Below, piece by piece: positions 365 through 31,714 of a stretch of DNA of 64,000 bases. The stretch is from a phage. The notes beneath the pieces were generated by a model. The model did no database searches and was not told the origin of the DNA. It worked only from the letters and a program-made list of their open reading frames with translations. The number at the start of each line of letters is the position of its first letter. Position 1 is the stretch's first letter. The translations under genes were made by a program, and so were the position numbers. Where the stretch lies: assembly GCA_029742005.1 (NCBI GenBank), contig GCA_029742005.1_4113.1. The stretch is one strand, 5' to 3'.

Positions 365-373
365 TAAAACAAA

Positions 374-400
374 AGGTTGACTTCGGTCAGCCTTTTTTTT
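374..400 (+). terminator. rho-independent terminator (GGTTGAC-TTCG-GTCAGCC + T8)
   Basis: Stem-loop followed by TTTTTTTT directly after stop. Confidence 0.7.
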
Positions 401-436
401 GTAAATACAAAAGAGGAATTAAGAAGAGGGATTACA

Positions 437-6099: not shown

Positions 6100-6127
6100 A
6101 AGGGTTGACTTCGGTCAGCCCTTTTTG
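6100..6127 (+). terminator. rho-independent terminator overlapping a promoter -35
   Basis: AGGGTTGACTTCGGTCAGCCCT hairpin + TTTTTG. Confidence 0.65.
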
Positions 6128-6134
6128 TTATAAT
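6105..6134 (+). promoter_or_regulatory. promoter TTGACT-18-TATAAT embedded in terminator
   Basis: -35 lies in hairpin stem; -10 TATAAT at 6129-6134. Confidence 0.5.
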
Positions 6135-6162
6135 CATTTCATCGAAACGAGAGGATGAATAC

Positions 6163-6678: not shown

Positions 6679-6683
6679 AGAAA

Positions 6684-6710
6684 AGGGTTGACTTCGGTCA
6701 GCCCTTTTTG
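6684..6710 (+). terminator. rho-independent terminator overlapping a promoter -35
   Basis: GGGTTGACTTCGGTCAGCCC + TTTTTG. Confidence 0.65.
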
Positions 6711-6718
6711 CTATAATT
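6688..6718 (+). promoter_or_regulatory. promoter TTGACT-19-TATAAT embedded in terminator
   Basis: Same composite as at 6100; spacer is long (19). Confidence 0.4.
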
Positions 6719-9651: not shown

Positions 9652-10023
9652 ATGAGTTACCGTGAGATATTTTCCATTATTTCAATTATTATGTTCAGTA
9701 CTGGAACACTGGTATGGTTATTATATTTCTTCTGTATTAATCCAGTGTATAATATGTTATGTAATATTAAATCAAGTGCCGGATATATCACTTTTATGGT
9801 CTTTATGGGATATTATTGTCTAAGCATTTTAGGTGTTGTTTTGGTTGTTATATTTGATGTGGGGCCAAATAGTGATGGTATGGAAATACATGAATTAATA
9901 ACCATGTTTGGATGTATGATACCAACAGCACTACTGTTTGTAGCTACTGGTAGTGGATTGATAAAATTATATAATTATTTAAAATCCATTCATAATTCCA
10001 TTCATAATAAGCGTATGTCATAA
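9652..10023 (+). CDS. small multi-pass membrane protein, family A
   Basis: RBS GAGGAA; hydrophobic. Confidence 0.55.
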   Translation: MSYREIFSIISIIMFSTGTLVWLLYFFCINPVYNMLCNIKSSAGYITFMVFMGYYCLSILGVVLVVIFDVGPNSDGMEIHELITMFGCMIPTALLFVATGSGLIKLYNYLKSIHNSIHNKRMS

Positions 10024-10065
10024 TAAAAAATCCAGTACTATTAAGTACTGGATGTATAAGGAGTT

Positions 10066-10728
10066 ATGATGAAATCAAAATTAGGTTTGTTTTATAAAAA
10101 CTATTTTGTTAAACAACGTAAATTTATAAAAAAATATTTCTCTGGTGAGAAGTCTAGTCCTATAATTTTTAAAAGACCAAGTTATAATACTTACTTAGCT
10201 GGTGCTAAACAGTCTAAGAAATTTATTACTCTTTTAAATAAAAACAAAATTAAAGCTTCTTATGTTGAAACGAGAAGAAACTCATCAATAACTCCTGGTG
10301 ATTTTATTGAGTACGGATGTTTCAATATTAAGTATAATGATAATACATACTTTATGGATATTGATTGTAATACATCCAATCTTTTTAACATTGTAGTAAA
10401 TCCATTAAAACAATATAATGTTTATGGTGATTCTATTATCAAATTAATAAAAAACAAAGATGGCTTTGATTTTGAAATAAATGTTTTAGATGATAATTTT
10501 GACGAAGTACCCGTAAACCCTGAAATCTGTGATATTTTAAACAGTTTAAAAGGTAGTACCTACAATATATCATCTGATTTAATGTTTCAGTACTCATTAA
10601 TCCATAAAGATATTGAAAAGTATATTGAATGCTCCAGAATTTTGAATTTTCTCTATGATGAATTTAAAAAGAGTTCTAAAATAACTGCATACACTTTGTA
10701 CAATATTCCTAAAATGGTGAATCTTTAA
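10066..10728 (+). CDS. hypothetical protein
   Basis: RBS AAGGAG; 220 aa; converges on the minus-strand block. Confidence 0.55.
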   Translation: MMKSKLGLFYKNYFVKQRKFIKKYFSGEKSSPIIFKRPSYNTYLAGAKQSKKFITLLNKNKIKASYVETRRNSSITPGDFIEYGCFNIKYNDNTYFMDIDCNTSNLFNIVVNPLKQYNVYGDSIIKLIKNKDGFDFEINVLDDNFDEVPVNPEICDILNSLKGSTYNISSDLMFQYSLIHKDIEKYIECSRILNFLYDEFKKSSKITAYTLYNIPKMVNL

Positions 10729-11132
10729 CAAATACAGTACTGGCAACTCCACCGTCTGTAATATATTGTCCAGTACTGTAAATTTGTATACCATCGGTTA
10801 AGTAAGTTCTGTATAAAGTTGCTGTAACATATACGTTATTCATATTCATCTCTATTGGTAGTACACATTTGGTATAGGCCGACACATCTGTTTGTGTACC
10901 TATACCCAATTGACCTGCGTTATCGCCTGTGTTATTACCAGTTGCGTAAACACCCAATGAAGTTATAATATGATTAGAAAAATATGAATAACCCAAACTC
11001 TTGAGATTCTCTACTGTACAACGTACCATCTGACATAAGGGCAAAAACTGTTGTATCAGATGAAGCTATTTTTGTTACAGAAGGTTGTATGTTCTGTTTT
11101 GATGATGTGATAATTCTTCGAAAGGGTAGCAT
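10709..11132 (-). pseudogene. truncated/frameshifted RCC1-like paralog
   Basis: MLPFRR start after GGAGGA at 11132; frame breaks in 10974-11044; downstream frame has GNNTGDNAGQLGIG; total about 170 aa versus 370-395 aa for paralogs. Confidence 0.4.
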
Positions 11133-11203
11133 TGTATCCTCCAAATGTAAATCGTTATTATATTTAGGACAAAAAATGCCAGTACAAGGCACTGGCATAA
11201 AAT

Positions 11204-12373
11204 CTAAGCAGAAGGCATATCCTTCATCTTAATAAATGAAAATTGTGTACCAGTATTTGTGGTTTGATCAGTAAAATATGAATTACTACCAGCCCAGTAC
11301 AATTCATTATTAACTATACAATATATAACAGAACTCGAACTCTGTGAATACACACGACTTATATTTGATGGTTCTACTCCAGTACTGAACTGAACCGAAC
11401 CCAACTGTGAACTTGGTATCACATCAGTTGGTCTACCTAAACCATTAACACCAGCCCCACCACCACATGTATATACCCCAGTACTATCAGTTGATATATT
11501 AACATAACCATTCCCGGCATTTTCAAATAGTATTTCACTGGGAGCAACACCAAATCCTGTAAGATCTATTTTCCTGAATGTAGTGTAAACAGTAGAACCA
11601 CCAACACCTCTTCCACCATAATCATTAGAACCAGCCATATAGATACTATATCCAGAACTTCCTAAACATAATAACTGTACGTTGTCATATAATATTTGCA
11701 TAGATATAACGTTATCAGGAATACTCAATACCGTAAAAGTAGTTAAAGAAGAACTTCCAATATTACTACCAACCGATGTTCCACATCTGTAGTACTTACC
11801 GCCTTTTATATAATGGAACGATGAACCCCCTAACTTATGTGCTCCTATTGCACTTACCTCAGTATCTATGAGAATGGGAGATACAACTTTGTTATTAACA
11901 CCTAACTCAGATCTACTGTTCATACCGAACCCATATAAACGACCATCTAACATCAATATTAGTGTACTACCGGAAGTACCCGCTGACGTAAATTCTATAT
12001 TCTTTATTTGCGACACGTCAATACCTACAAATAATGAAGTTACTTCAGTCCAGTTAACATATGAACCACTAGCCCCAAAATATCCACCCATGTATAGACC
12101 TGCACAATATAATTTATTATCAACAGTCTTTATTAATGTACCGGATACACACGCCCAAAAATCATCAACTTCATAGGGTACATGTACCCAACCACCTAAT
12201 ACATCACTAGCATCCCCTGTACCTAATTTATAGTTCGAACCAGAACCACGCATGTACATATTCCCTGTACTATAAAGTAATCCGACATGTAATTGACTAC
12301 CATCCAATTTCTTTATTTCGGGAAGAGTTGGTTTAATATTTCCGTACTTTAACATTCTTCCAAAAGGTAACAT
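11204..12373 (-). CDS. RCC1-like repeat (beta-propeller) protein, MLPF family
   Basis: Start MLPFGRMLKYGN after AAAGGAGGAA; G-x-N-x-x-G-x-LG-like repeats. Confidence 0.6.
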   Translation of the reverse strand: MLPFGRMLKYGNIKPTLPEIKKLDGSQLHVGLLYSTGNMYMRGSGSNYKLGTGDASDVLGGWVHVPYEVDDFWACVSGTLIKTVDNKLYCAGLYMGGYFGASGSYVNWTEVTSLFVGIDVSQIKNIEFTSAGTSGSTLILMLDGRLYGFGMNSRSELGVNNKVVSPILIDTEVSAIGAHKLGGSSFHYIKGGKYYRCGTSVGSNIGSSSLTTFTVLSIPDNVISMQILYDNVQLLCLGSSGYSIYMAGSNDYGGRGVGGSTVYTTFRKIDLTGFGVAPSEILFENAGNGYVNISTDSTGVYTCGGGAGVNGLGRPTDVIPSSQLGSVQFSTGVEPSNISRVYSQSSSSVIYCIVNNELYWAGSNSYFTDQTTNTGTQFSFIKMKDMPSA

Positions 12374-12399
12374 AATTCCTCCTTTATTCATTATACTAT

Positions 12400-12437
12400 A
12401 TTTAATACAAAAAGAAAAGCCAGTACAGAGTACTGGC
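12400..12437 (-). terminator. terminator hairpin GCCAGTAC-N3-GTACTGGC with T-run on minus strand
   Basis: Perfect 8-bp stem; minus-strand transcript reads hairpin then TTTTCTTTTT. Confidence 0.55.
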
Positions 12438-12444
12438 CTATATT

Positions 12445-13164
12445 TTAGACTGAATTGTTAGGATAATATCTCCCACGTCCCCATATTATTCGCACAGCAC
12501 CACCACCAGCAGCCGTATAAGAAAAATTATCCCATATACTACCACCACCACCATACATCTTACCAGCACCACCACTACCAGCACCACCATTATATGAACC
12601 ATCGTATCTACCGCCAATACCATTAGCACCTTGAACAATGATACCAGTACCACCACCCGTACCAATGAACGAGGTATTATAGAATGCACCACCACCGCCG
12701 CCGCCGCCAGCACCATTTTCACCAGTGATTGCATCTCCGTTACCACCTTTACCAGTGTAGCCACCAGCACCACCACCAATGACTGCACCACCACTTACAC
12801 CAGCGTTGCCCCCATTACCACCACCATCATTAATAGCGTTAGCAGCTTTCCCACCTAGTCCACCAACCCTATATTCACCAGTGAAGCTAACACATAGTTT
12901 TTCAGTTCCACGATATAAACCGTTTTCAACTGGTGTAGTAGTGTTGGGATGTGTAAGAGAAACACTTAAGTACTCACCACTAGTAACCGGAATATTATTA
13001 CGCCACGATAAGCCGCCACCAGCACCACGTTGACCACCCGGCGAAATAACACATACTGATATTTCGGTAACGCCAGCAGGAACTGTAAATTGTGTTGTTC
13101 CTATTGTCGTGATTAATTGTTCACCATGTGGCTTATATTCAATTTTATTCCCTCCTTTATTCAT
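12445..13164 (-). CDS. glycine-rich repeat protein (possible fibre-like structural protein)
   Basis: 239 aa, long GGxGG runs in C-terminal two thirds; same upstream module as RCC1 genes. Confidence 0.55.
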   Translation of the reverse strand: MNKGGNKIEYKPHGEQLITTIGTTQFTVPAGVTEISVCVISPGGQRGAGGGLSWRNNIPVTSGEYLSVSLTHPNTTTPVENGLYRGTEKLCVSFTGEYRVGGLGGKAANAINDGGGNGGNAGVSGGAVIGGGAGGYTGKGGNGDAITGENGAGGGGGGGAFYNTSFIGTGGGTGIIVQGANGIGGRYDGSYNGGAGSGGAGKMYGGGGSIWDNFSYTAAGGGAVRIIWGRGRYYPNNSV

Positions 13165-13180
13165 TATAATATATTTAATA

Positions 13181-13211
13181 CAAAAAAGAAAAGCCAGTAC
13201 TCTGTACTGGC
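13181..13211 (-). terminator. terminator hairpin GCCAGTAC-N3-GTACTGGC with T-run
   Basis: Same hairpin as 12419-12437. Confidence 0.55.
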
Positions 13212-13218
13212 TTTTACA

Positions 13219-14409
13219 TTACAATTGTCTAGGTGTATCCAGTACATATCTATTTGTACGAGGACCACCATCATCATGCGTTCCGGTTGAATATATATTT
13301 TTCATATCAGCAGTTAGGAAAGTACGATACGAACCGCGATATATTTTAATTTTATCATACATAGAATATGTTATTCCTGACGGCAATGGACATGCAGTAA
13401 ATTTACCAATGGTAACATTAGAACCAACACCTAATGTACCAGCATAACCACTCGCATTTAAACCAGTTGCATATACACCTGTACTCGTAACTAGTATACT
13501 AGATTGTGATGCATATCCAGTATGGATTGAATAATAAGTTCCTGATGGTAATGTAGTACTATTATTCCCTAATACTGCTAGTGCTGTACTATTCGTAGTG
13601 TTATTACCCCATGCCCCATTATTAGCTAATCCACCAACTAGAAACTGACGTGCTCCTGTATTTGGATTCTCCACTAAAGCACTGACAGCACCAAATGAAC
13701 AAACAGTATATTGTAATGTTTTTGTATATGTGGTACTTGGCTTATACAAAGTATATTCATTAAATGGTGTCCATGTGGTACTAGTACTTATGCCAGATGT
13801 ACTACCACCAATATATAAATTATTTTGTGTATCAAAAAACATTGCACAGTAATTTGTTGACTGTATTTGTGCAATATCTACATCTGGTGTTACCGCTTTA
13901 ACAAATGAACCATCTGATATTTGATAAGTAGTTCCTGTACCATCTGCGAATTGTCTAGCACTATTCCACCCTGTACTCCATATTGTATTATTATCCATTA
14001 AGAAAGTAAACCATGTAGTACCTGCATACATCTGTTTAATTGAAGTACTTGAACTTTGTTTGTACAATTTTTCAATATATTGGTTATAACTTAAAAATGA
14101 TGTAGTACTAGTTTCTAAACCAATATGACTACCATATCCACAATAAAAATAATTTAAGTCCTTATCTTGAACTAACAAAGTTCCTTGTGTCATCCAGCAA
14201 TCTTTGACATTTTCTCTAATTAATGTCCACGACCTTACTGCATTATTATTTCCTCTACCAAACTTCCCAAAACTATTACTGCCTCGTGCGTATAGTTGAC
14301 CGTCGGTATAAAGTACAACAACCTCAGTATCAGTTGGTATTATTTTCTTAATTTGAAGAGGTTCAGGTGTGATATTCCCATAATCAAACATTCTAACAAA
14401 AGGTAACAT
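13219..14409 (-). CDS. RCC1-like repeat protein, MLPF family
   Basis: MLPFVRMFDYGN; RBS AAGGAGGAAAT; repeats such as YARGSNSFGKFGRGNN. Confidence 0.6.
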   Translation of the reverse strand: MLPFVRMFDYGNITPEPLQIKKIIPTDTEVVVLYTDGQLYARGSNSFGKFGRGNNNAVRSWTLIRENVKDCWMTQGTLLVQDKDLNYFYCGYGSHIGLETSTTSFLSYNQYIEKLYKQSSSTSIKQMYAGTTWFTFLMDNNTIWSTGWNSARQFADGTGTTYQISDGSFVKAVTPDVDIAQIQSTNYCAMFFDTQNNLYIGGSTSGISTSTTWTPFNEYTLYKPSTTYTKTLQYTVCSFGAVSALVENPNTGARQFLVGGLANNGAWGNNTTNSTALAVLGNNSTTLPSGTYYSIHTGYASQSSILVTSTGVYATGLNASGYAGTLGVGSNVTIGKFTACPLPSGITYSMYDKIKIYRGSYRTFLTADMKNIYSTGTHDDGGPRTNRYVLDTPRQL

Positions 14410-14478
14410 ATTTCCTCCTTATTCATTATACTATATTTAATACAAATAAGAATGCCAGTATCAAGTACTGGCATTATG

Positions 14479-15588
14479 TTATTTTGGTAAATCAATTTTA
14501 GTAAAGACTGCAACATCCTCGATTGCACCTGGAATGGCGTAATACGATCCAGTACTATACACATCTCCATTTTTGGTTAATATCGATGTCAAACCATCAC
14601 TAAAAAGAACATCCCTAATCTCACTAACTTCAACGGGTAATTGTAAATTGGTAGCACTATATATAGCACCAGTTTGAGAATTGTTTAATCCCAAACCACG
14701 GTTCGCCCCAACACCCTTCTGATATGTACTAGTAATTACCATTTGTGTAGCAGTATTTAAGGCAGGTGAATTCGTCATAAACAACGGAGAACTATTAGGC
14801 AAAGTACTTACAGGAACGGCACGGAATGTAGTCGTGCCTGAACTAAGAAAGTTTGGAGTTTGACCACATACGAAATATGATGTACCATTATAGTAATTGA
14901 ATGCATTACCACCAATGGCTGCATCGATTACACCAGAACTACGCAATCCCCAAGTGTTAATTTGTGTTTGGTTCCCCGTACCATGCTGTCCACTACTATT
15001 CCATCCAGAACTATATAGCTTATTATCTAATGTAAGATACATACTATCATTCGCATTGGTCATTACTTTACGAACGTTCGTAGCACATTGAGTTAATGTG
15101 TAAATTGATGAGGAACCAATACCCAAAGAACCACGATATCCATTATCTCCTGCACCATAGAGTACTGAATTAGTGCTAAGTACAAATATTAAACCATTTG
15201 TACATACAATATTAGCAATTTCACTTACTGGTATAGCATTGGTAAACCAATTAGTCCTTTCAACTAATACAGTACTGTAAGAAGTAGTTGTAGAAGATGA
15301 GAACCAGTACGTTTGACCTGATGTCCATATCGTATTATCATTTTTAATAATAACAAGTGTACGATCACCCACGAAAAAATTAGAAACATCTGCACTTACT
15401 AATATCCATGAAGATACCGTGTTGGTATTACCATTTCCAGATTCACCACCTTGATTTCTACCTATGTAATATAAATCATGTGAATCAGTCAATAAGAATT
15501 GACCTTGTGTAGAAGCACCAACTTTAATTATATTTTTAGGACCAGGTACAATATTTCCGTACTTAACCATTCTTGCAAAAGGTAACAT
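14479..15588 (-). CDS. RCC1-like repeat protein, MLPF family
   Basis: MLPFARMVKYGN start; 369 aa. Confidence 0.6.
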   Translation of the reverse strand: MLPFARMVKYGNIVPGPKNIIKVGASTQGQFLLTDSHDLYYIGRNQGGESGNGNTNTVSSWILVSADVSNFFVGDRTLVIIKNDNTIWTSGQTYWFSSSTTTSYSTVLVERTNWFTNAIPVSEIANIVCTNGLIFVLSTNSVLYGAGDNGYRGSLGIGSSSIYTLTQCATNVRKVMTNANDSMYLTLDNKLYSSGWNSSGQHGTGNQTQINTWGLRSSGVIDAAIGGNAFNYYNGTSYFVCGQTPNFLSSGTTTFRAVPVSTLPNSSPLFMTNSPALNTATQMVITSTYQKGVGANRGLGLNNSQTGAIYSATNLQLPVEVSEIRDVLFSDGLTSILTKNGDVYSTGSYYAIPGAIEDVAVFTKIDLPK

Positions 15589-15598
15589 AATTCTCTCC

Positions 15599-16729
15599 TT
15601 AATTTAATAATGCCCCTGGCAAATCCACTTTGACGAATTGTGCATATGCTGAGGAATTTTGATCAAAGTTTGGTCCCAATCCATAAAATGAGCTAATGCC
15701 GTCTTCATTTGTGTATATGATATAAACGTTCTTTACATCATTTCCGCATATAAATCGAATGTCTTTCGTTTGTGTTCCCGCTGGAACATTACGAAGGTTC
15801 ACAACGCCATTACTTGCATTGTTATCAGCCGACGCAATTGGTAATTGATTTTGACCATATTGACCACGCATATTTTTTGCATCTAAACCAAACACAGTAT
15901 TTGATACCGCACCAACTTTCAAAAATGAACCAAAACTATTATTGAATGACTTTGGAAATGTACCACTATAAACACTTCTCCCATCTGATAATACCGCTGA
16001 ACTGAATTTCCCGTTATTCGATATGGCAAATTCATTGTAAGGAAGTGTACCCATTTTGGTATATACAGAATATGAATTAGTGGAAGTATTATCAATAATC
16101 TTATTACCATTATATCCAATACCATACTGGTATCCGTCTGCATCTTGAACTATACACAAAGGACCACTTGGGGTTTGTGTCAACGAAACAACACGTTCAA
16201 CTTGTATATCACCAAATGTATTTCTTCGCCATGTTCTATCTATTATAGTACTAGTATTACCCAAAGATAATTCCACACTATATAATAGATTGTTTTCAGT
16301 AAAAATGGCAACATAATATGCGTGGTTAATAACTTGCTTCATCCCAGCATCAATAACTTCCTGTGGAATATGATCAGTAACATCCAACCAATCAAGGTTA
16401 GATGATGCAATATCTGGAGTACTGAATTTGTCAAATCTAGTTGAGCCACAAACTAGCACTCTATCATCATTTGTCAAAGCCACTGTGCTAGTCTGCATAT
16501 TAGAACTGAATGATTTAACATTACTAATGTTAGACTTGTACCAACCCTTATCAGCAGCACCCACCGTGAATCCGGTTCCCATTGATCCACTTGTACTTGT
16601 ACCATAAGCCCACATCTCACCACTATATGTTAGTGCCATACAGTGGCTTCCATTTGCTTGGAAATCCTTTATACCAGTGGGAGCAACCACTGTATTCCCA
16701 TAATCAAACATTCTAACAAAAGGTAACAT
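15599..16729 (-). CDS. RCC1-like repeat protein, MLPF family
   Basis: MLPFVRMFDYGN after GGAGAT; track start MEILV is the SD region. Confidence 0.6.
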   Translation of the reverse strand: MLPFVRMFDYGNTVVAPTGIKDFQANGSHCMALTYSGEMWAYGTSTSGSMGTGFTVGAADKGWYKSNISNVKSFSSNMQTSTVALTNDDRVLVCGSTRFDKFSTPDIASSNLDWLDVTDHIPQEVIDAGMKQVINHAYYVAIFTENNLLYSVELSLGNTSTIIDRTWRRNTFGDIQVERVVSLTQTPSGPLCIVQDADGYQYGIGYNGNKIIDNTSTNSYSVYTKMGTLPYNEFAISNNGKFSSAVLSDGRSVYSGTFPKSFNNSFGSFLKVGAVSNTVFGLDAKNMRGQYGQNQLPIASADNNASNGVVNLRNVPAGTQTKDIRFICGNDVKNVYIIYTNEDGISSFYGLGPNFDQNSSAYAQFVKVDLPGALLN

Positions 16730-16804
16730 AACTAAAATCTCCATATAATAATTATAATGTATTTACAAAAAAATACCAGTACATATTTCAGTACTGGCAT
16801 TTTG

Positions 16805-17932
16805 TTAAAATGGTAAATCTATTTGTTTAGTAAATGTCATACTTAGTGGTATTGAACACATTGACGCATTTCTCCCATTTAAATTGGACGGAGGCTGTCC
16901 GTTCATCCATATATTGGTATCGTCGTAAAAAGTACTCCACCACGTAGAACCTTCCGTATGAAGATTAATATTAAAATCAGGGAATTGACATTCTTGAAAA
17001 ACATCAAAAAACGGGATAGATGATACACTACTACCAGTAAATGGAGTGTAGCCTGTTGACATTAATTTATTAGTATCCGAATTTACCAAAAAGATAACAG
17101 AACCAGTATTGAATGGTGAATATTTTGGATACAAATTACTCATATCACCGATAGTGAAGTTGATATCAAATATTTTACTATGCTTACCAGTTCCTGAAAG
17201 TGTAGTACCAGTTACATATATTTTATTATCAGTTGTTCCCATGACAAACCCAATTCCAAATCCCACACAAAATGTTATGTCATATGGTATATTATCAAAG
17301 AGTGGGACAAACGTTGTGGCATCACCAGTAGTAGCTTTTATTTGATAGCTATTATTTGCCCCAGCACCCCAAACAGTACCATTTGATTTCACTTTGAATA
17401 TACTATCTCCTATGTAGTGACCGTATATACTATCAACTTCAGTATCAAGTTTTGTCCATTGTGATACAAAGTTTTTATGCCCTAAACCTAAACAACCATT
17501 GCGGTTTAGTCCCCTGCCGTATAGTGTACCATCATTCATCAGTACAAATGTTGTGTATCCACAAAGCATTTTTTTGATTTGTGTAACATCAATACCAGCA
17601 AAAAAACCACTCCAATCAGTATATCCTTGTTGGATTGCGTTTGATTTGGTGAATGACATAGTTGGTCCTGAACCATATATTTTACCATCTTTTATAATCA
17701 CTGAATAAGAACCTAACCATACATCTTGAACATTCTCACTAATTGTTTTCAATTCACCATATGCAGAGAATGGAGTACTTTGCCCTGCACTATATGATGA
17801 ATCTTCACCGTGTGCATATAATGTTCCATTTTCTGTTAGAATCATTTCCAAATATACACAATTGACAATTTTCTTTATTTTATTAACTTCTATTTTATTT
17901 CCGTACGCTAACATCCTTGCAAAAGGTAACAT
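16805..17932 (-). CDS. RCC1-like repeat protein, MLPF family
   Basis: MLPFARMLAYGN; YGRGLNRNGCLGLGH repeat. Confidence 0.6.
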   Translation of the reverse strand: MLPFARMLAYGNKIEVNKIKKIVNCVYLEMILTENGTLYAHGEDSSYSAGQSTPFSAYGELKTISENVQDVWLGSYSVIIKDGKIYGSGPTMSFTKSNAIQQGYTDWSGFFAGIDVTQIKKMLCGYTTFVLMNDGTLYGRGLNRNGCLGLGHKNFVSQWTKLDTEVDSIYGHYIGDSIFKVKSNGTVWGAGANNSYQIKATTGDATTFVPLFDNIPYDITFCVGFGIGFVMGTTDNKIYVTGTTLSGTGKHSKIFDINFTIGDMSNLYPKYSPFNTGSVIFLVNSDTNKLMSTGYTPFTGSSVSSIPFFDVFQECQFPDFNINLHTEGSTWWSTFYDDTNIWMNGQPPSNLNGRNASMCSIPLSMTFTKQIDLPF

Positions 17933-18007
17933 AACTAAAATCTCCATATAATAATTATAATGTATTTACAAAAAAATACCAGCACATATTTCAGTACTGG
18001 TATAATG

Positions 18008-19180
18008 TTATGGTAAAATAATAGCTTGTAACGAACTCATACCCAATGTTGGAACACTCGCCTGTGGTGCTGGTGCATTCACTTTTGGTGATGAAACCGC
18101 ATAAGTCATTCCTGTACCCAAATCTGGATCAAAAACTACAGAACAATAATCCCCATTGTATATAAGTCCATTAGTATATCCTTGTACACTTTGAATGCAT
18201 TTCGTGAACGTACCAATGTCAGTAGTGGCATTTATTAAGTTCCTCCCACGGTAGCCACATGTGTATATGAAATTATCATCACCTATGTACATACTCGCAT
18301 TCCCAGAAGAACTACATAGATAAGACATATAAGCACGCATGTTTTTAGGAGCAACTGACAATGTACCAGCATAGAATTTATTATTCATACCCGAAATATC
18401 ACCATCACCCAAAGCACCAAAACTCCCCCAACCAGTACCATAATATCTCTTATCACTCAAGAATATAATACAGTTGTTATTACACATCTTGACTTGATAT
18501 ATCAATGAAGGATCAACCCCAGGGAATGATTCAGTGTATGTTAGAACAGCCAGATCAGTACTGGCATTACATTGATGATATGTATTAGTACCAGCGGACA
18601 ATATTGTACCATCAACTAATAGAATCCTCGAAGTGCCAGTACCAGCAATACAAGCAACAGCATTACCTGTATATATTTTTCTGAAAGTAAAGAAACCAAC
18701 AGTCTTACTCCCCTGTCCACTCCAACCAGTATTATCAACACCACATGCCCATACTGAACCATCTTGCATGATCATCATTACACCATAGCGTTCTATCGAA
18801 ATATAGACAATCTTCGTAGTATCAACTGCACTAAATCTAGAAGTTATATCAGTCCAAACCTTTACACTCACCGCCGTCGCACCGAAAGTAGGATCTTCCC
18901 CTGCTATCATTATCCTACCATTGTTAGTCAGATACATTGTCTGACTATAACCAGTACTACAAAACTTAACACTATCAGTCTCTGGAACTTTTAACCACTC
19001 GTTGTAACGTGTTACGTTAGTGTTATTATCTAACTGATAATAGTTATTCATCCCAGATACATATAACACACCATCCTTTATTAAACTATAAGTCGCACTA
19101 TAGTCACTACAGGTATAACGTGTACCCACAGGTCGCTCAACGACGTTCCCATATTCTAACATCCTTACAAAAGGCAACAT
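18008..19180 (-). CDS. RCC1-like repeat protein, MLPF family
   Basis: MLPFVRMLEYGN; no clear SD; start uncertain. Confidence 0.5.
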   Translation of the reverse strand: MLPFVRMLEYGNVVERPVGTRYTCSDYSATYSLIKDGVLYVSGMNNYYQLDNNTNVTRYNEWLKVPETDSVKFCSTGYSQTMYLTNNGRIMIAGEDPTFGATAVSVKVWTDITSRFSAVDTTKIVYISIERYGVMMIMQDGSVWACGVDNTGWSGQGSKTVGFFTFRKIYTGNAVACIAGTGTSRILLVDGTILSAGTNTYHQCNASTDLAVLTYTESFPGVDPSLIYQVKMCNNNCIIFLSDKRYYGTGWGSFGALGDGDISGMNNKFYAGTLSVAPKNMRAYMSYLCSSSGNASMYIGDDNFIYTCGYRGRNLINATTDIGTFTKCIQSVQGYTNGLIYNGDYCSVVFDPDLGTGMTYAVSSPKVNAPAPQASVPTLGMSSLQAIILP

Positions 19181-19221
19181 AACTAAATACCAGAACATAT
19201 TTCAGTACTGGTATCGTAGCG

Positions 19222-20364
19222 TTAAAATGGCATCTTAACCTCTTTATATACTAATATATCACCGGATAAACCAGGAAACGCAGAACCATTACCACATGCA
19301 TATATAGTACTGTCATTCCACGCCGCTTGATGGTAATTACCTATAGTACATTTATAATTCGATAAATCAGTCACACCAGGTGTTAGTACATAATATACTG
19401 GTCCACTAGGTAAATTAAAATCAAATCTACCAAAGTAGTTCAAACCAGATGAATAGGACTTGTCATTAGCAAATATTACAGTACCATCTTCTGTAAAAGA
19501 ACTGTGAGAAATGTCTTTGAGATTGTTCACAACACCAGACGGTATTGATGTATTCAACGTAAAGGACGTCAATGGTGCTGCACTCGGTGTGTTGTTCGCC
19601 GTGTAACCATAATATGCATAACCAGCTACATATACACTCGAATCTGAACAAAATAAAAATGCACTCCTATAACCCAACCTAATACTCTCTATAGTCTTAC
19701 TAAAAGTAACTTTAGTAAAGGTAGGAACTAAACCACTATATCCTACCCCACATGTACCAAAATCATTCTTCCCAGTACTGTACAATTCGTTATTATTTGT
19801 AAGGTAAAATGACGCAGCAGCACCGCTATCTAAAGTACTGTAAACGTCTTTTACATTACTCGCAATCAATTTAAATGCACTCAATACGGTAGCCGAACCA
19901 TTGTTAGACAGCGTTGTTGAATCCGTGCCTTGTCCTATTGTATATAAATCTCCAGTACTAGTCAAAACAAATATACCATTAGTCGCCATAACAATTCTGT
20001 CATTCTTTAAATTAAATGAACTAAAAAGTGTACTTATATCAGTAAAGGTAGTATAACGCCCACTCTGCCCTATACTCGATAAATTCCCACTCAAATAAAC
20101 CTTATTATCATTACCAACAGCTACATAACAACCCCACCCAGCATATATCTGATCAATGCCTTGTATCGGTATTTGTAACCATTCACTACCAGTTACCGAA
20201 GCAGTACTTCCAGTTCCAAGTTCACCAGAGTTATTAGCTCCGAATACATATAAATTCCCACTATCCGATAAAACAACTGTATTACCAACTCCAGTTTTTA
20301 TATCCTTGATACCATTCTTAGGAGCAACATTCCCATAATCAAACATTCTAACAAAAGGTAACAT
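19222..20364 (-). CDS. RCC1-like repeat protein, MLPF family
   Basis: MLPFVRMFDYGN; RBS GGAGGGAAAT. Confidence 0.6.
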   Translation of the reverse strand: MLPFVRMFDYGNVAPKNGIKDIKTGVGNTVVLSDSGNLYVFGANNSGELGTGSTASVTGSEWLQIPIQGIDQIYAGWGCYVAVGNDNKVYLSGNLSSIGQSGRYTTFTDISTLFSSFNLKNDRIVMATNGIFVLTSTGDLYTIGQGTDSTTLSNNGSATVLSAFKLIASNVKDVYSTLDSGAAASFYLTNNNELYSTGKNDFGTCGVGYSGLVPTFTKVTFSKTIESIRLGYRSAFLFCSDSSVYVAGYAYYGYTANNTPSAAPLTSFTLNTSIPSGVVNNLKDISHSSFTEDGTVIFANDKSYSSGLNYFGRFDFNLPSGPVYYVLTPGVTDLSNYKCTIGNYHQAAWNDSTIYACGNGSAFPGLSGDILVYKEVKMPF

Positions 20365-20436
20365 ATTTCCCTCCTTTATTCATTATACTATATTTAATCA
20401 AAAATAAAAGCCAGTACTTGAGTACTGGCATAGTAT

Positions 20437-21564
20437 TCAAAAAGGTAAATCAATTTGCTTAGTAATAATAGTATCTAACGGTATTGAACACAATGAGAAA
20501 TTCTTTCCACCCGTATTTTCAGGATTATATCCATTCATCCATACATTATTACCTTCGTAAAATGTATTCCAGTATAAAGCCCCACTATATCGTGTATTCG
20601 AATTGAACGATGGAAAGTTGAATTCTTGGAATGATGTAAAATATGGAATGGAACTTGAACTACTTCCCGTAAATGGGGTATACCCAGTTGCTATTAGTTT
20701 GTTTGTATCTGCATTAATTAAAAATACAACACTAGTCGAATAGTCCAACGAATCAGGATGATATATATTACTCATATCACCTATAGTAAAACCAACATCA
20801 AAAACTTTACTATGTGCACCACTACCAGCAAAAGTAGTTCCAGTTGCATATATTTTATTATCAGATGTTATCATTACAAAACCAACACCAGAAACAAAAC
20901 TGCATTTTATATCATAAGATATATCATCAAACAACGGAACAAATGTGGTTGCATCACCCGATGTTGCTTTAACTTGAAAGCTGTTATTTGAACCTGAACC
21001 ATATACAGTTCCATCGTTTTTAATCTTAAACAATGTATCGCCAAGGTAACCGCCAAATATATTATCCACATTAGTGTCAAGTACAGTCCACGCTGAAACA
21101 TAATTTTTATGTCCTAAACCTAATGCACCACTTCGATTCCATCCTCTTCCATAAAGTGTTCCGTCTTTCATTAATATAAATGCTGTATAACCACATAACA
21201 TTTTTTTAATTTGGGTAACATCTATACCAGTGAAATACACAGCCCAGTCAGTATATCCTTGTTGGAAAGTATCAGAATTCGTGAATGCATATGTTGGACC
21301 TGAACCATATATTTTATCACCTTTAATAACAACGGAAAACAATCCTAACCATAAGTCATCAACTTCAGTTGTGATTTGTTGAACTGCTCCTAACGATACA
21401 AACTTTGTACTTAAACCCGCATTATAGTTTGAATCTTCACCGTGTGCATATACAGTGCCATCTTGCATTAGAAACATTTCAAGAGTGCCACTAACAACAC
21501 TTTTCTTTATATTATTAACTTCGATTATATTCCCATAATCAAACATTCTAACAAAAGGTAACAT
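20437..21564 (-). CDS. RCC1-like repeat protein, MLPF family
   Basis: MLPFVRMFDYGN; YGRGWNRSGALGLGH repeat; closest paralog of 16805-17932. Confidence 0.6.
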   Translation of the reverse strand: MLPFVRMFDYGNIIEVNNIKKSVVSGTLEMFLMQDGTVYAHGEDSNYNAGLSTKFVSLGAVQQITTEVDDLWLGLFSVVIKGDKIYGSGPTYAFTNSDTFQQGYTDWAVYFTGIDVTQIKKMLCGYTAFILMKDGTLYGRGWNRSGALGLGHKNYVSAWTVLDTNVDNIFGGYLGDTLFKIKNDGTVYGSGSNNSFQVKATSGDATTFVPLFDDISYDIKCSFVSGVGFVMITSDNKIYATGTTFAGSGAHSKVFDVGFTIGDMSNIYHPDSLDYSTSVVFLINADTNKLIATGYTPFTGSSSSSIPYFTSFQEFNFPSFNSNTRYSGALYWNTFYEGNNVWMNGYNPENTGGKNFSLCSIPLDTIITKQIDLPF

Positions 21565-21636
21565 AATTCCCTCCTTTATTCATTATACTTTATTTAATAC
21601 AAATAAGAATTCCTGTATCGAGTACTGGCATTCAAT

Positions 21637-22785
21637 TTATTGTAAAAAGGACATATCTACTTCTGTATAACTAAGAATGTTTTGACCAGCAATTCCACCC
21701 ATTACTACTATTGCATACCCACAATAATATAATTTCCCAGTGTCCGTAAGTATAAGTGAACCAGAAGGTGTTCTTACCAAATTACACGAACTATTAAAAG
21801 AAGTATACGAAGGAGTATAGGAGTACTGATTAATATTATTACCAACACCTAATTGACCACCCCTATTCGAACCAGATGCATAAAGTACTTCATCTGCTTT
21901 GACAATATGTGATGCCATGTTAGCAACACATGCATATACACCATATACCCCTGTACTCAATAATGTAGGAGTCTTGTATTGAATATCAGTACTAGTAGAT
22001 GTTCCACCTGTGCCAAATTCATTACCATATTGTGCTCCGTACTGCTTCCCACATGCGTACAAATTATTATCCGATTTGATAAAAAATGTACTCTGATAAC
22101 TTACATCAAAATCTATAACATCCGAAGAAATCATCGTTACCCCAGTAATCGAAGTTTGATTACCAGTACCCAACTGGTAGTAATAGTTAAAACCACAACC
22201 CCATAAAGTATTATCTTCTTTTAGGTATATGTTACCAACTGCCTTTTTAACCGAAGTTATAGTATCTACCCTTTTGAATGTGTTAAAAGAATTAATGTTT
22301 GTACCATCACCAAATGATGATAGGTTCGAGTTATTGTTAACTCCACAACAATACAACGTACCATCGTTTGTTATCAAATTCACCTTCATATCATTAAAAC
22401 TACTCATGTATTTTATATCAGAAACATTAATACCACCTGATGTTATCCATGTAGTACAGTCCGTCCATAACGTCTTCCTATCAGTTACCCCAGTAAATGC
22501 CTTCGTGTTACCAGTGATAAACACTTTACCAGTACCCTTTTCTTCATACAATTGACAATCACTACTGTTATCTTCCAATAAAACCCTCTGTACATTCTCT
22601 GCACAAAGAATAAATTTACTCGATGCTACACCTGTTCCAGTACCCCAATTCGTCGCAGAAGATGCATACAACTTATGTGTTAGTGTATCATGCAAATACA
22701 TAGAACCACTAGAATATATTTTAAAACGCCCAGAGTTGGTAGGTGCTTCATTCCCATAATCAAACATTCTAACAAAAGGTAACAT
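21637..22785 (-). CDS. RCC1-like repeat protein, MLPF family
   Basis: MLPFVRMFDYGN after AAAGGAGGAAAT; track start MNKGGN covers the SD. Confidence 0.6.
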   Translation of the reverse strand: MLPFVRMFDYGNEAPTNSGRFKIYSSGSMYLHDTLTHKLYASSATNWGTGTGVASSKFILCAENVQRVLLEDNSSDCQLYEEKGTGKVFITGNTKAFTGVTDRKTLWTDCTTWITSGGINVSDIKYMSSFNDMKVNLITNDGTLYCCGVNNNSNLSSFGDGTNINSFNTFKRVDTITSVKKAVGNIYLKEDNTLWGCGFNYYYQLGTGNQTSITGVTMISSDVIDFDVSYQSTFFIKSDNNLYACGKQYGAQYGNEFGTGGTSTSTDIQYKTPTLLSTGVYGVYACVANMASHIVKADEVLYASGSNRGGQLGVGNNINQYSYTPSYTSFNSSCNLVRTPSGSLILTDTGKLYYCGYAIVVMGGIAGQNILSYTEVDMSFLQ

Positions 22786-22827
22786 ATTTCCTCCTTTATT
22801 CATTATATCATATTTACCCCATAACCC

Positions 22828-22856
22828 TTGACATCCTTTCAGTACTGGTGTACTAT
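22828..22856 (+). promoter_or_regulatory. promoter TTGACA-17-TACTAT heading the 22.9-26.9 kb array
   Basis: Consensus -35, 17-nt spacer containing CAGTACTG. Confidence 0.5.
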
Positions 22857-22881
22857 AGAAGGAATATAAGGAGAACTACAC

Positions 22882-23109
22882 ATGACAGCTACACTTAAGT
22901 ACTACATTAATACTCTAAATGAACTAGAGTACGGTAAGTTTCTCGCGGATTGTTCGTGGCTAATAGAGCTAAAAACACATAACAGTACTGGATGTAACCT
23001 TATGCTGAACAATGCACTTGATACCCTTGTAGTGAGTATTTTACACAGCAACATCTGCGGGAATAGCAATAAACAATTATCAAAAATCTTAGTACTGGTA
23101 GCTATATGA
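22882..23109 (+). CDS. small hypothetical protein (family B-like)
   Basis: RBS TAAGGAG; 75 aa. Confidence 0.5.
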   Translation: MTATLKYYINTLNELEYGKFLADCSWLIELKTHNSTGCNLMLNNALDTLVVSILHSNICGNSNKQLSKILVLVAI

Positions 23110-23318
23110 ACACTATGAACATTAAACAGTACTACATCGATGCACTACCAACAAAAGGTCTACGAGAAAGCCTACTGTATACACAAAATAATTTTATACA
23201 CTACAAACGTTATCCTAAACTCCTGAACTCGTACAGGAATAATAACATAAGAAATGCTTTACAAGGGGTAGAAAGTATGCAATACTATTACATCCTTACC
23301 CTTTTAATCGAGTACTAA
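23106..23318 (+). CDS. small protein, family B
   Basis: ATGA overlap; MNTMNIKQYY.., C-terminus LTLLIEY. Confidence 0.5.
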   Translation: MNTMNIKQYYIDALPTKGLRESLLYTQNNFIHYKRYPKLLNSYRNNNIRNALQGVESMQYYYILTLLIEY

Positions 23319-23319
23319 T

Positions 23320-23505
23320 ATGTATAAAGAATTCTACTGTAGTAAGCTGCACAAGCAATACCGAGATTCATTCCCCAATGAACCTATGGACATGAATAGT
23401 CCATTTTATAAATTTGACTTCAGACTGGAGACACGTTATGCAATAGAACATCAATTTCCTGAAACTAAGTACTTATCTATCATGAACCTCATCTTTAAGT
23501 TCTAA
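23320..23505 (+). CDS. small protein, family B
   Basis: 61 aa, tightly packed. Confidence 0.45.
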   Translation: MYKEFYCSKLHKQYRDSFPNEPMDMNSPFYKFDFRLETRYAIEHQFPETKYLSIMNLIFKF

Positions 23506-27506: not shown

Positions 27507-27534
27507 TTGACATTATGATTCAGTACTGTATAAT
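27507..27534 (+). promoter_or_regulatory. promoter TTGACA-16-TATAAT in non-coding region
   Basis: Consensus hexamers; no protein ORF downstream. Confidence 0.5.
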
Positions 27535-27540
27535 GTTCTA

Positions 27541-27655
27541 CATAGCTTCAAGGGGTGATGAGTTGCTGCGAACAATTCATTTACTCTACCTCCTGTCGTG
27601 AGACAGTACAGAAAAGATAGTTCCTCCTGTGGTGGTACATCTTTTTGAACCTCAT
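27541..27655 (+). ncRNA. candidate small non-coding transcript
   Basis: Promoter upstream, no credible ORF, T-run near 27650. Confidence 0.25.
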
Positions 27656-27726
27656 ATGAAAATCGTAATAACAGTACTGATATTAACAGAATGGTGTCAG
27701 TACTGATTTTAATCTAAAGCATTATG

Positions 27727-28844: not shown

Positions 28845-28899
28845 GTTTTACATCGAGAGCGGGAACACTTCCCGCTACACTTTAAGAGAGATTAATACG

Positions 28900-31711: not shown

Positions 31712-31714
31712 CAA

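What the first reader, a model, noticed from the sequence alone, without database searches (positions are those of the whole stretch)
12400..12445. Conserved intergenic module repeated before every RCC1 gene
Between consecutive minus-strand genes the same unit recurs: a GCCAGTAC-N3-GTACTGGC hairpin with T-runs on both strands (bidirectional terminator), then on the coding strand TTTGTATTAAATATAGTATAATGAATAAAGGAGG-ATG. Representative copies are at 12400-12445, 13165-13215, 14410-14470, 16745-16800 and 20365-20430. The AT-rich TATAAT-containing box directly abutting the Shine-Dalgarno suggests a dedicated, possibly late-type, promoter duplicated with each gene.
Basis: seen in the sequence. Interest (0 to 1): 0.45.

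Follow-up and report, generated by a model that had tools for sequence, protein, structure and literature searches.

The report
Terminator plus late-promoter cassette between phage genes
In a giant E. coli phage, most genes in an array of particle-protein genes are separated by the same ~70-base unit, a transcription stop hairpin followed by a T4-style late promoter core and a ribosome site; this is ordinary regulatory DNA, but it also marks the points where related phages have swapped these genes.

Summary
The repeat is real, but it does not precede every RCC1 gene and it is not specific to them. The window is an Asteriusvirus-like jumbo coliphage. Its minus-strand array (10709-22803) holds 9 RCC1-like genes, one Gly-rich gene and one frameshifted remnant.

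- **Copies.** Five type-A modules, two type-B variants, one hairpin-only relic, one degenerate copy in front of the remnant, one box without a hairpin, and one 10-bp junction with no module.
- **Hairpin.** It behaves as an intrinsic terminator: dG -11 to -17 kcal/mol with a 3' T-run.
- **Promoter.** There is no -35 element and no TG motif. The invariant element is TAAATA, intact in 66 of 66 modules from 7 genomes. TATAAT is mutated in 7 true modules.
- **TAAATA is a genome-wide signal.** It is about 3-fold depleted overall. 36% of its copies lie just upstream of genes in the sense orientation. It is 7.7-fold enriched before phAPEC6 virion-protein genes. TATAAATA precedes the major capsid gene, and relatives encode a gp55-like late sigma.
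- **Expression class.** RCC1-like proteins are virion components, so a T4-type late promoter is the best reading. This is inferred; no start sites have been mapped.
- **Conservation and shuffling.** The module plus a 12-codon head (MLPFxRMxxYGN) stays far more conserved than the paralog bodies (mostly 24-35% protein identity). Synteny breaks between genomes fall exactly on it, as with T4 PeSL cassettes.

The parts
12374..12444 (-). Type-A module between the Gly-rich gene (stop 12445) and an RCC1-like gene (ATG 12373). Hairpin 12419-12437, T-run 12409-12418, TAAATA 12399-12404, TATAAT 12390-12395, SD GGAGG 12378-12382.
   Evidence: Hairpin dG -15.0, z -4.2. Terminator-scan hit.
13144..13218 (-). 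Type-A module in front of the Gly-rich gene. Hairpin 13193-13211 (extended stem 13189-13215), TAAATA 13172-13177, TATAAT 13163-13168, SD 13151-13155. The normal ATG and the MLPF head are deleted here.
   Evidence: dG -16.0, z -4.4. Head present in the phAPEC6 and G17 orthologues but missing here.
14410..14478 (-). Type-A module. Hairpin 14454-14472, TAAATA 14434-14439, TATAAT 14425-14430, SD 14414-14418.
   Evidence: dG -14.5, z -4.6.
15589..15598 (-). Junction without a module: TAAGGAGAGAATTATG, 10 bp with only an SD. The downstream gene is presumably co-transcribed with its upstream neighbour.
   Evidence: The same packed junction is seen in other genomes.
16730..16804 (-). Type-B module. 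Hairpin 16775-16798 (8-nt loop), T7, TAAATA 16760-16765, TATAAT 16751-16756, SD GGAGA 16738-16742.
   Evidence: dG -17.2, z -5.0.
17933..18007 (-). Type-B module. Hairpin 17978-18001, TAAATA 17963-17968, TATAAT 17954-17959, SD 17941-17945.
   Evidence: dG -14.8, z -4.4.
19181..19221 (-). Relic of a type-B module. Hairpin 19189-19212 only. T-run, TAAATA, TATAAT and SD were lost in a deletion of about 38 nt between ATTT repeats. The hairpin abuts the ATG at 19180.
   Evidence: dG -11.1. The 92% orthologue in vB_Ec-M-J keeps a full type-B module.
20365..20436 (-). Type-A module. Hairpin 20410-20429, TAAATA 20391-20396, TATAAT 20382-20387, SD 20370-20374.
   Evidence: dG -13.8, z -4.1.
21565..21636 (-). 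Type-A module with a decayed hairpin (3' arm ATACAGGAA). TAAATA 21591-21596, TATAAT 21582-21587, SD 21570-21574.
   Evidence: dG -7.1, z -1.3, not better than shuffles.
22786..22816 (-). Promoter box of the first gene of the array, with no terminator hairpin: GGGGTAAATAtgaTATAATGAATAAAGGAGG. TAAATA 22811-22816, TATAAT 22802-22807, SD 22790-22794.
   Evidence: The same 'first-type' box occurs in 121Q, CMSTMSU, vB_Ec-M-J and SD-15_S21.
11131..11203 (-). Degenerate module in front of a frameshifted RCC1 remnant. Hairpin 11178-11196, T6, TAAATA 11161-11166 overlapping TATAAT 11157-11162, SD 11138-11142.
   Evidence: dG -15.5.
10709..22785 (-). The gene array the modules punctuate. Nine RCC1-like genes: 11204-12373, 13219-14409, 14479-15588, 15599-16729, 16805-17932, 18008-19180, 19222-20364, 20437-21564, 21637-22785. 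One Gly-rich gene at 12445-13164 and one remnant at 10709-11130. Each RCC1 gene opens with the conserved head MLPFxRMxxYGN (first 36 nt).
   Evidence: Pfam RCC1/RLD hits for 9 genes and none for the Gly-rich one. PDB hits to RCC1, RPGR and HERC. Head conservation 84% nt against 33-50% in the bodies.

Best explanation
Each module is a compact terminator, late promoter and ribosome-site cassette. It turns most genes of the array into their own late transcription unit.

Proposed mechanism:
1. Transcription of the upstream gene ends at the GC-cored hairpin and its U-run.
2. Eight to 13 bases later, host RNA polymerase carrying the phage's gp55-like late sigma opens the DNA at TAAATA. This is a 6-of-8 (type A) or 7-of-8 (type B) match to the T4 late promoter TATAAATA, and it has no -35 element.
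3. Transcription starts a few bases downstream, inside or next to the TATAAT.
4. The short, unstructured leader presents a strong AAGGAGG Shine-Dalgarno 5-8 nt before the ATG.
5. The products are minor virion proteins.

Because the module plus the first 12 codons is a roughly 110-nt near-identical repeat, it also serves as the crossover point for deleting, replacing and reordering whole genes between related phages.

Shown here: the sequence anatomy, hairpin stability, absence of a -35, genome-wide behaviour of TAAATA, virion association, and breakpoints at the modules. Inferred: the start site, which sigma is used, timing, terminator efficiency, and whether recombination is a selected function or a by-product of the repeat.
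For: **Terminator.**
- Stems of 8-12 bp with dG -11 to -17 kcal/mol and z -3.5 to -5.0.
- 15 terminator-like sites in 10000-23500 against 4.5 expected, eight of them at modules on the coding strand.
- Loops vary while stems are kept, and the pair next to the core switches G-C, A-T and T-A.
- G17's record annotates the same hairpins as terminators.

**Not a sigma-70 promoter.** No -35/-10 pair is found at the TATAAT of any module and there is no TG. The window's real early promoters have a canonical TTGCAA/TTGACA, a 16-18 bp spacer and TATAAT.

**TAAATA is the signal.**
- It is intact in 66 of 66 modules. TATAAT is changed in 7 true modules, including loss of the -7 T in TATAAC x4, all before intact genes.
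- TAAATA occurs 132 times in 214 kb, against 349-490 for same-composition hexamers.
- 36% of its copies lie intergenic, in the sense orientation, 10-90 nt before a gene start. Controls give 2-11%.
- TATAAATA occurs 0 times in the window against 14.5 +/- 3.7 expected.
- In phAPEC6, TATAAATA or xxTAAATA precedes the capsid, scaffold, protease, sheath, neck and baseplate genes.
- 34 of 58 virion-protein genes have TAAATA within 100 nt upstream, against 43 of 278 other genes (OR 7.7, p 5e-11). Without the RCC1 genes the figure is 30 of 52 (p 7e-10).
- phAPEC6 gp237c matches the late-sigma family phrog_234 (8e-18).
- Rak2-like phages CBB and GAP32 were predicted to use ATAAATA before structural genes (PMC5259590).

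**Late class.** Eight RCC1-like proteins of phAPEC6 were found in virions by MS (PMC7247149 Table 1).

**Depth of conservation.** Salmonella phage Munch, a relative outside Asteriusvirus whose RCC1-like proteins are about 34% identical, keeps hairpin, T-run and TAAATA at its three spacers. GAP32 gp001 keeps a different hairpin, T8 and GTAAATA without TATAAT.

**Leader.** It folds no better than shuffles (z +0.7 to +1.1).

**Shuffling.**
- Paralog proteins are 24-35% identical (one pair is 64%), but module and head are far more conserved: 84% mean nt identity over the first 30 nt of the genes.
- Megablast blocks against five genomes end inside the modules. Neighbouring blocks overlap there and map to non-adjacent places.
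- Module type does not follow gene phylogeny. The 64%-identical pair 20437-21564 and 16805-17932 carries type A and type B.
Against: - No transcription start or 3'-end data exist for any Asteriusvirus in the searchable literature, so promoter class and terminator efficiency are inferred.
- The match to the T4 octamer is partial. Position -1 is T or G rather than the A preferred at other late genes.
- A perfect TATAAT at fixed spacing is kept in 57 of 66 modules, in both module types and in Munch. TAAATA-N3-4-TATAAT recurs at four other virion genes. TATAAT therefore probably matters too, as a second -10 or a preferred initiation region, and the model does not explain that.
- The gp55-like sigma is seen in relatives, not in this 64-kb window.
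- CBB's authors found no gp33 or gp45 homologues.
- Module copies are related by descent, so the 66/66 versus 57/66 counts are not independent events.
- Breakpoints at repeats are expected from homology alone and do not prove a selected recombination role.
Confidence: 0.65

Rival explanations
1. The functional promoter is the TATAAT box, a -10-only promoter with an AT/T-rich upstream region. It would be read by host sigma-70 or by the phage's RpoD-like sigma, giving early or middle expression. Alternatively it works alongside TAAATA as a dual promoter, so the genes are made at two stages.
For: - A perfect TATAAT lies 9 nt after the start of TAAATA in 57 of 66 modules, in both types A and B, although the 3-nt spacer varies (tag, cat, tga, aag).
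- The composite is also present in Munch.
- It occurs at four other virion genes, more often than after control hexamers (7.4% against 0.2-2.5%).
- phAPEC6 encodes an RpoD-like sigma with regions 2-4.
Against: - No -35 and no extended -10 TG.
- The phage's own sigma-70 promoters are canonical and look quite different.
- TATAAC, TATAAA and TATTAT variants precede intact genes.
- GAP32 and one Munch spacer have TAAATA without TATAAT.
- A start 7 nt after TATAAT would leave only 1-3 nt before the SD.
- The products are virion proteins.
Confidence: 0.17
2. There is no internal promoter. The array is one read-through transcript from the box at 22790-22816. The intergenic units are conserved because they are leaky attenuators plus translation-initiation regions, kept uniform by gene conversion between repeats.
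For: - Twelve of 79 scored RCC1 gene starts have no module and must be co-transcribed.
- Munch's array is mostly packed like an operon.
- The T-runs are interrupted (TTTTCTTTTT).
- One hairpin is decayed and one gene lacks box and SD, yet both ORFs are intact.
- Breakpoints at modules show that recombination acts there.
Against: - TAAATA is strongly avoided genome-wide, is oriented with genes and is tied to virion genes. Its perfect retention in every module is not explained by translation or by conversion alone.
- Variant T-run and loop sequences are shared between genomes rather than homogenised within one genome.
- The terminator-then-TAAATA arrangement recurs at unrelated late genes (gp244, gp245, gp274c, GAP32 gp001).
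Confidence: 0.1
3. The hairpin is a sequence-specific protein or nuclease target rather than, or in addition to, a terminator. Its arms are built from the clade's hugely over-represented palindrome (C)AGTACT(G). It could serve RNA processing, 3'-end stabilisation or DNA binding.
For: - The CCAGTAC/GTACTGG stem sequence itself, not just the pairing, is conserved between Asteriusvirus and Munch, although the genes are only about 34% identical.
- AGTACT is 6- to 27-fold over-represented in all Rak2-like loci examined.
Against: - GAP32 and other late genes use unrelated hairpins (cTTCGg loops) in the same position.
- Two nearby copies of any palindrome pair automatically, so the stem may simply be made from abundant material.
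- AGTACT sites show no preferred spacing and lie mostly inside genes.
- No Rfam family matches.
Confidence: 0.08

Closest known systems
T4-type late promoter (TATAAATA, read by gp55 late sigma with gp33 and the gp45 clamp)
   Same: An AT-only -10-type element with no -35. It lies 20-40 nt before late or virion genes. The phage clade encodes a gp55-family sigma. The canonical octamer sits before the capsid gene of close relatives. The motif is purged from the rest of the genome.
   Different: The modules carry only the 3' hexamer TAAATA (ATTAAATA, TGTAAATA or GGTAAATA). A TATAAT follows 3 nt later. gp33 and gp45 homologues were reported as not detected in the related phage CBB. No start site has been mapped.
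PeSL cassettes (promoter-early stem-loops) of T4-like phages (Arbiol 2010, PMC2839356; Comeau 2014, PMC4122927)
   Same: A small repeated intergenic composite of stem-loop terminator, promoter and SD that flanks variable genes. It sits exactly at insertion, deletion and replacement junctions between related genomes.
   Different: PeSLs carry strong sigma-70 early promoters, with the stem-loop between or over the -35 and -10 boxes, and they flank ORFans. Here the promoter is late-type, the stem-loop lies upstream of it, the repeat extends 36 nt into the coding sequence, and the cargo is paralogous virion proteins in a Rak2-like jumbo phage. Mini-circles were not tested.
Predicted late promoter ATAAATA of Rak2-like phages CBB and GAP32 (PMC5259590)
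   Same: The same clade, the same core and the same link to structural genes. GAP32's RCC1-like virion gene gp001 carries it.
   Different: That work described the motif in general. It did not describe the fused terminator, promoter and head unit or its role in the RCC1 arrays. At the position before TAAATA the Asteriusvirus modules have T or G, not A.
Rho-independent terminators annotated in phage G17 (MK327931, ARNold)
   Same: The same hairpins at the same intergenic positions in an orthologous array.
   Different: Those are annotated as terminators only. Nothing is said about the adjoining promoter or the repeat structure.

Membership tests
Intrinsic (Rho-independent) terminator | Stable GC-containing stem-loop just downstream of a stop codon | tested here: met
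   Stems of 8-12 bp with 4-5 GC pairs, dG -11 to -17 and z -3.5 to -5, starting 6-13 nt after the stop. Exception: 21565-21636 is decayed.
Intrinsic (Rho-independent) terminator | U-rich tract directly 3' of the stem | tested here: met
   TTTTCTTTTT, TTTTTTT, TTTTATTTTT and similar on the coding strand. The opposite strand has only weak, interrupted tails.
Intrinsic (Rho-independent) terminator | RNA 3' ends or termination activity at the site | not testable with these tools
   No term-seq or RNA-seq data for Asteriusvirus were found.
T4-type late promoter | TATAAATA octamer at about -10 | tested here: inconclusive
   The modules have 6/8 (ATTAAATA, GGTAAATA) or 7/8 (TGTAAATA). The invariant part is TAAATA. 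The full octamer precedes the capsid gene and other major late genes in phAPEC6.
T4-type late promoter | No -35 element | tested here: met
   The consensus scan finds no -35 partner at any module.
T4-type late promoter | Phage encodes a gp55-family sigma | tested here: met
   phAPEC6 gp237c matches phrog_234 'late sigma transcription factor' at 8e-18 and phrog_12791 at 3e-154. This was seen in a close relative, not inside this window.
T4-type late promoter | Precedes late (virion) genes; motif oriented with genes and avoided elsewhere | tested here: met
T4-type late promoter | Start site about 6-7 nt downstream, late timing, dependence on clamp and co-activator | not testable with these tools
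   Needs 5'-end mapping and in vitro transcription.
Sigma-70 -35/-10 promoter | TATAAT-like -10 hexamer | tested here: met
   Perfect TATAAT in 57 of 66 modules.
Sigma-70 -35/-10 promoter | TTGACA-like -35 at 16-18 bp, or an extended -10 TG | tested here: not met
   The sequence 17 bp upstream is TTTTCT and the bases before TATAAT are tAG, cAT or tGA.
PeSL mobile regulatory cassette | Repeated intergenic composite of stem-loop, promoter and SD | tested here: met
PeSL mobile regulatory cassette | Sigma-70 early promoter consensus | tested here: not met
   The core is late-type instead.
PeSL mobile regulatory cassette | Located at indel or replacement junctions between related genomes | tested here: met
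   All megablast block ends against G17, phAPEC6, 121Q, vB_Ec-M-J and SD-15_S21 that lie inside the array fall in the modules or heads. Neighbouring blocks overlap there and map to non-adjacent loci.
PeSL mobile regulatory cassette | Excised mini-circles formed by recombination between flanking cassettes | not testable with these tools
   Needs inverse PCR on infected cells.

The most novel reading that the evidence does not exclude
The module together with the 12-codon head MLPFxRMxxYGN is a plug-and-play 'express late and dock on the virion' cassette, a late-promoter counterpart of T4 PeSLs. Homologous exchange at this roughly 110-nt repeat would let Rak2-like jumbo phages insert, delete, reorder and replace unrelated surface-protein bodies. 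RCC1 propellers, a Kelch propeller and a Gly-rich protein all carry the head. The result would be a diversifying array of virion decorations or adhesins.
Probability: 0.3. Interest if true: 0.6.

Novelty: new variant of a known kind. Interest (0 to 1): 0.35.

Why it matters
- **Annotation.** It gives Asteriusvirus genomes a usable late-promoter definition: the TAAATA core, often fused to a terminator. It also corrects gene starts; the ATG inside TATAATG is not the start.
- **Biology of the RCC1-like genes.** These are annotated as 'DNA condensation' genes, but they behave as individually insulated late genes for minor virion proteins.
- **Genome evolution.** The cassette explains why the RCC1 array is the most mosaic part of these genomes. 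A conserved regulatory unit plus N-terminal head provides the crossover sites. If confirmed, it extends the PeSL idea from early ORFan regions of T4-like phages to late structural paralog arrays of jumbo phages.
- **Engineering.** It points to a natural site for swapping surface proteins.

None of this changes basic concepts. The elements themselves are ordinary.

Tried and rejected
- **Sigma-70 promoter at the box.** Rejected as the main reading: no -35 or TG and the -7 T is dispensable.
- **Regulatory RNA structure in the leader** (AAAGG pairing with CCUUU to hide the SD). Rejected: the fold is no better than shuffles, z +0.7 to +1.1.
- **Known RNA family.** Only sub-threshold Rfam hits to generic terminator-like leaders.
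- **ATG within TATAATG as the true start.** Rejected: its frame relative to the ORF differs between copies, and the MLPF ATG behind the SD is the conserved one.
- **Recent duplication as the reason for identity.** Rejected: the paralog bodies are mostly 24-35% identical.
- **Within-genome homogenisation.** Not supported: T-run and loop variants are shared across genomes.
- **Published promoter or transcriptome data for Asteriusvirus.** None found. PA5oct RNA-seq gave no transferable late motif.
- **IMG/VR scan for more arrays.** It returned essentially only 121Q.
- **Preferred spacing of AGTACT sites.** None found.
- **Technical note.** Loci fetched by parallel calls only reached the Python sandbox later, which cost a few searches.

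Full report
**Identity and setting.** The window (35% GC) matches Asteriusvirus jumbo coliphages: 121Q, PBECO4, G17, phAPEC6 and Salmonella relatives. The array region matches only in patches, 17-44% coverage at 88-97% identity. On the minus strand, 10709-22803 holds a gene array. Nine genes give Pfam RCC1 / RCC1-like-domain hits and PDB sequence hits to RCC1, RPGR and HERC. One gene (12445-13164) is Gly-rich with no Pfam hit (phrog_4474, unknown function). The stretch 10709-11130 is a frameshifted RCC1 remnant. True starts are the MLPF ATGs behind the SD. The ORF lister picks upstream ATGs, including the one inside TATAATG.

**The observation.** Reading every intergenic spacer confirms the unit at all five cited places and shows its real distribution.
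- Five type-A modules: hairpin GCCAGTAC-N3-5-GTACTGGC, T-run, ATTAAATAtagTATAATGAATAAAGGAGG.
- Two type-B modules with an 8-nt loop and a different box: GTAAATAcatTATAAT...GGAGA.
- One relic at 19181-19221 where box and SD were deleted between ATTT repeats.
- One degenerate copy before the remnant.
- One box without a hairpin before the first gene.
- One 10-bp junction with no module.

The box is far beyond chance: 5 matches against 0, and TAAATAnnnTATAAT 8 against 0.12. In seven genomes, 64 of 79 scored RCC1-type starts carry hairpin plus TAAATA, 12 have only an SD, 2 have TAAATA only and 1 has the hairpin only. So 'every RCC1 gene' is an overstatement, and one module serves a non-RCC1 gene.

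**Terminator.** The hairpins fold at -11 to -17 kcal/mol with z -3.5 to -5. The copy at 21565-21636 has decayed (-7.1, z -1.3). The consensus scan finds 15 terminator-like sites in 13.5 kb against 4.5 expected, eight of them at modules on the coding strand. On the opposite strand only three pass, with interrupted tails, so 'bidirectional' is weak. Across 51 distinct copies the loops vary freely while the stems are kept, and the pair next to the core switches among G-C, A-T and T-A. G17's GenBank record already annotates these hairpins as ARNold terminators.

**Promoter class.**
- The TATAAT has no -35 partner and no TG. The window's genuine early promoters (about 24 copies at 27.4-44.6 kb) are canonical: AAAGTACTTGCAA, a 16-18 bp spacer, TATAAT.
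- TAAATA/TATTTA is the most under-represented hexamer by a maximal-order Markov test: 25 observed against 76 expected.
- Ten of its 25 copies lie in the array.
- TATAAATA is absent from the window, against 14.5 +/- 3.7 expected.
- Over the window plus 150 kb of phAPEC6, TAAATA occurs 132 times, against 349-490 for same-composition hexamers. 36% of its copies are intergenic, in the sense orientation and 10-90 nt before a gene start, against 2-11% for controls.
- In phAPEC6 the major capsid gene has TATAAATA 47 nt upstream. The scaffold, protease, portal-region, sheath, neck and baseplate genes have TATAAATA or xxTAAATA, often directly after a terminator.
- 34 of 58 MS-identified virion genes have TAAATA within 100 nt upstream, against 43 of 278 other predicted genes (OR 7.7, p 5e-11). 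The association holds without the RCC1 genes.
- phAPEC6 encodes a gp55-family late sigma and a separate RpoD-like sigma.
- CBB and GAP32 were predicted to use ATAAATA before structural genes (PMC5259590).
- Eight RCC1-like proteins are virion components in phAPEC6 (PMC7247149).
- In the modules TAAATA is never mutated (66/66). TATAAT is TATAAC x4, TATAAA x2 (one inside a true module) and TATTAT x1, plus a further deviant hexamer, all before intact genes; that is 7 deviants among true modules.

I therefore assign the modules to the phage's T4-type late promoter class, as weaker 6/8 or 7/8 variants. This is an inference. TATAAT is nevertheless kept in both module types despite a variable 3-nt spacer, and TAAATA-N3-4-TATAAT recurs before four other virion genes. 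It probably contributes, either as the initiation region or as a second -10.

**Conservation and the head.** Paralog proteins share 24-35% identity; one pair reaches 64%. Nucleotide identity across the bodies is 33-50%. The first 30 nt of the CDS reach 84%, and the type-A modules are near-identical. The leader is unstructured. The same head MLPFGRMxKYGN opens the Gly-rich protein in phAPEC6 and G17; the window copy has lost it by deletion. It also opens a Kelch-repeat 'virion structural protein' in vB_Ec-M-J. The conserved unit is thus terminator, late promoter, SD and a 12-codon head, attached to three unrelated bodies.

**Mosaic junctions.** Megablast of the array against five genomes gives blocks that end in the modules or heads, for example 12330-12384, 13147-13165, 14361-14484, 21527-21564 and 22737-22816. 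Neighbouring blocks overlap there and map to non-adjacent positions, and the gene order differs. One paralog (19222-20364) has no relative above 35% identity in the whole phage collection. Module type does not follow gene phylogeny. This is the pattern described for PeSL cassettes (PMC2839356, PMC4122927), but with a late promoter and virion-protein cargo.

**Depth.** In Salmonella phage Munch, a relative outside Asteriusvirus, the array is mostly packed like an operon, with heads MIPFxRIxxYGN. Its three spacers carry hairpin, T-run and AATTAAATA. Two have GGCCAGTAC-type stems followed by TATAAT, and one has TAAATA alone. GAP32's single RCC1-like virion gene has an unrelated hairpin, T8 and GGGTAAATA without TATAAT. 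TAAATA is the common denominator.

**Verdict.** This is a real, functional-looking but conventional regulatory cassette. Parts of it are already annotated or predicted in relatives. The additions here are its assignment to the TAAATA late class, its extension into a shared N-terminal head, and its role as the junction of gene shuffling. Timing, start sites and terminator strength remain untested.

Noticed in passing
whole window; also L002-L006 (phAPEC6), L013, L014, L015 (Munch), L016 (GAP32): The palindrome AGTACT is hugely over-represented: 269 sites in 64 kb against 22 expected (12x). CAGTACTG has 61 sites against 0.7 expected. The excess is 6x over 250 kb of phAPEC6, 7.6x in Munch and 27x in a 4-kb GAP32 end. 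Sites fall in all three reading frames and in spacers, with no preferred spacing. The module hairpin arms and many early promoters (AAAGTACTTGCA, AGTACTGTATAAT) contain the motif. No paper in the library links the motif to these phages. Unexplained.
   Followed up: partly
window 27400-44650, plus strand (TATAAT at 27529, 28839, 29299, 29976, 31063, 31434, 31902, 32219, 33767, 35613, 35842, 36434, 36869, 38585, 39448, 39834, 40193, 42746, 43082, 43722, 44591 and others): About 24 near-identical strong sigma-70 early promoters: AAAGTACTTGCAA or TTGACA, 16-18 bp, TATAAT, GTTTTACATC. Each is followed by a conserved 5'-leader hairpin such as GGGGAGAAATGGTTCTCCCC and a small ORF. This is a PeSL-like early ORFan region.
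   Followed up: no
window 6100-6135 and 6683-6718 (+); compare 373-407 (+): Terminator-promoter composites in which the -35 (TTGACT) lies inside the hairpin GGGTTGACTTCGGTCAGCCC and TATAAT follows the T-run. This is the classic PeSL layout. At 373-407 the same hairpin is followed by TAAATA instead.
   Followed up: no
whole window and phAPEC6 1-250 kb: Six 6-bp palindromes are completely absent: CCGCGG, CCCGGG, CCATGG, CAGCTG, AGGCCT and AGCGCT (0 against up to 23 expected in 250 kb). GATC, CTAG and CATG are depleted. This looks like classic restriction-site avoidance.
   Followed up: partly
window 13143-13168 (-): The Gly-rich gene has lost its ATG and the 11-codon MLPF head through a deletion between GGAGG and ACGGGAAT. 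The only in-frame ATG left is the one inside TATAATG, with no SD. That implies a near-leaderless mRNA, a rare ATT start or a crippled gene.
   Followed up: partly
window 19181-19221 (-): The RCC1 gene at 18008-19180 has no promoter box and no SD. A deletion of about 38 nt between ATTT repeats left the terminator hairpin abutting the ATG. The ORF is intact and 92% identical to its vB_Ec-M-J orthologue.
   Followed up: partly
window 22737-22816 against L013 14070-14927: vB_Ec-M-J has a Kelch-repeat virion protein (EcMJ_585) with the same MLPF head at the start of its array. The window lacks it. The junction lies in the repeated box and head, which is the signature of homologous deletion.
   Followed up: partly
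window 19222-20364 (-): This RCC1-like paralog has no relative above 35% identity in the 50,697-record phage collection. Its neighbours have 89-100% orthologues. It is a non-orthologous replacement in one slot of the array.
   Followed up: partly
window 14454-14472 against L001 (G17) near 13010; also L013 and L012 copies: Some hairpin copies are exact reverse complements of others: GCCAGTACTTGATACTGGC against GCCAGTATCAAGTACTGGC. The stem-loop has flipped in place.
   Followed up: no
L007 (phAPEC6) upstream of gp215c and gp219c: A possible third (middle) promoter class, AAAAAATGAGACAA, about 15 nt, then GATAnAAT. It recalls the TGAAACG/TATA motif reported for CBB and GAP32. It is not present at the RCC1 modules.
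   Followed up: no
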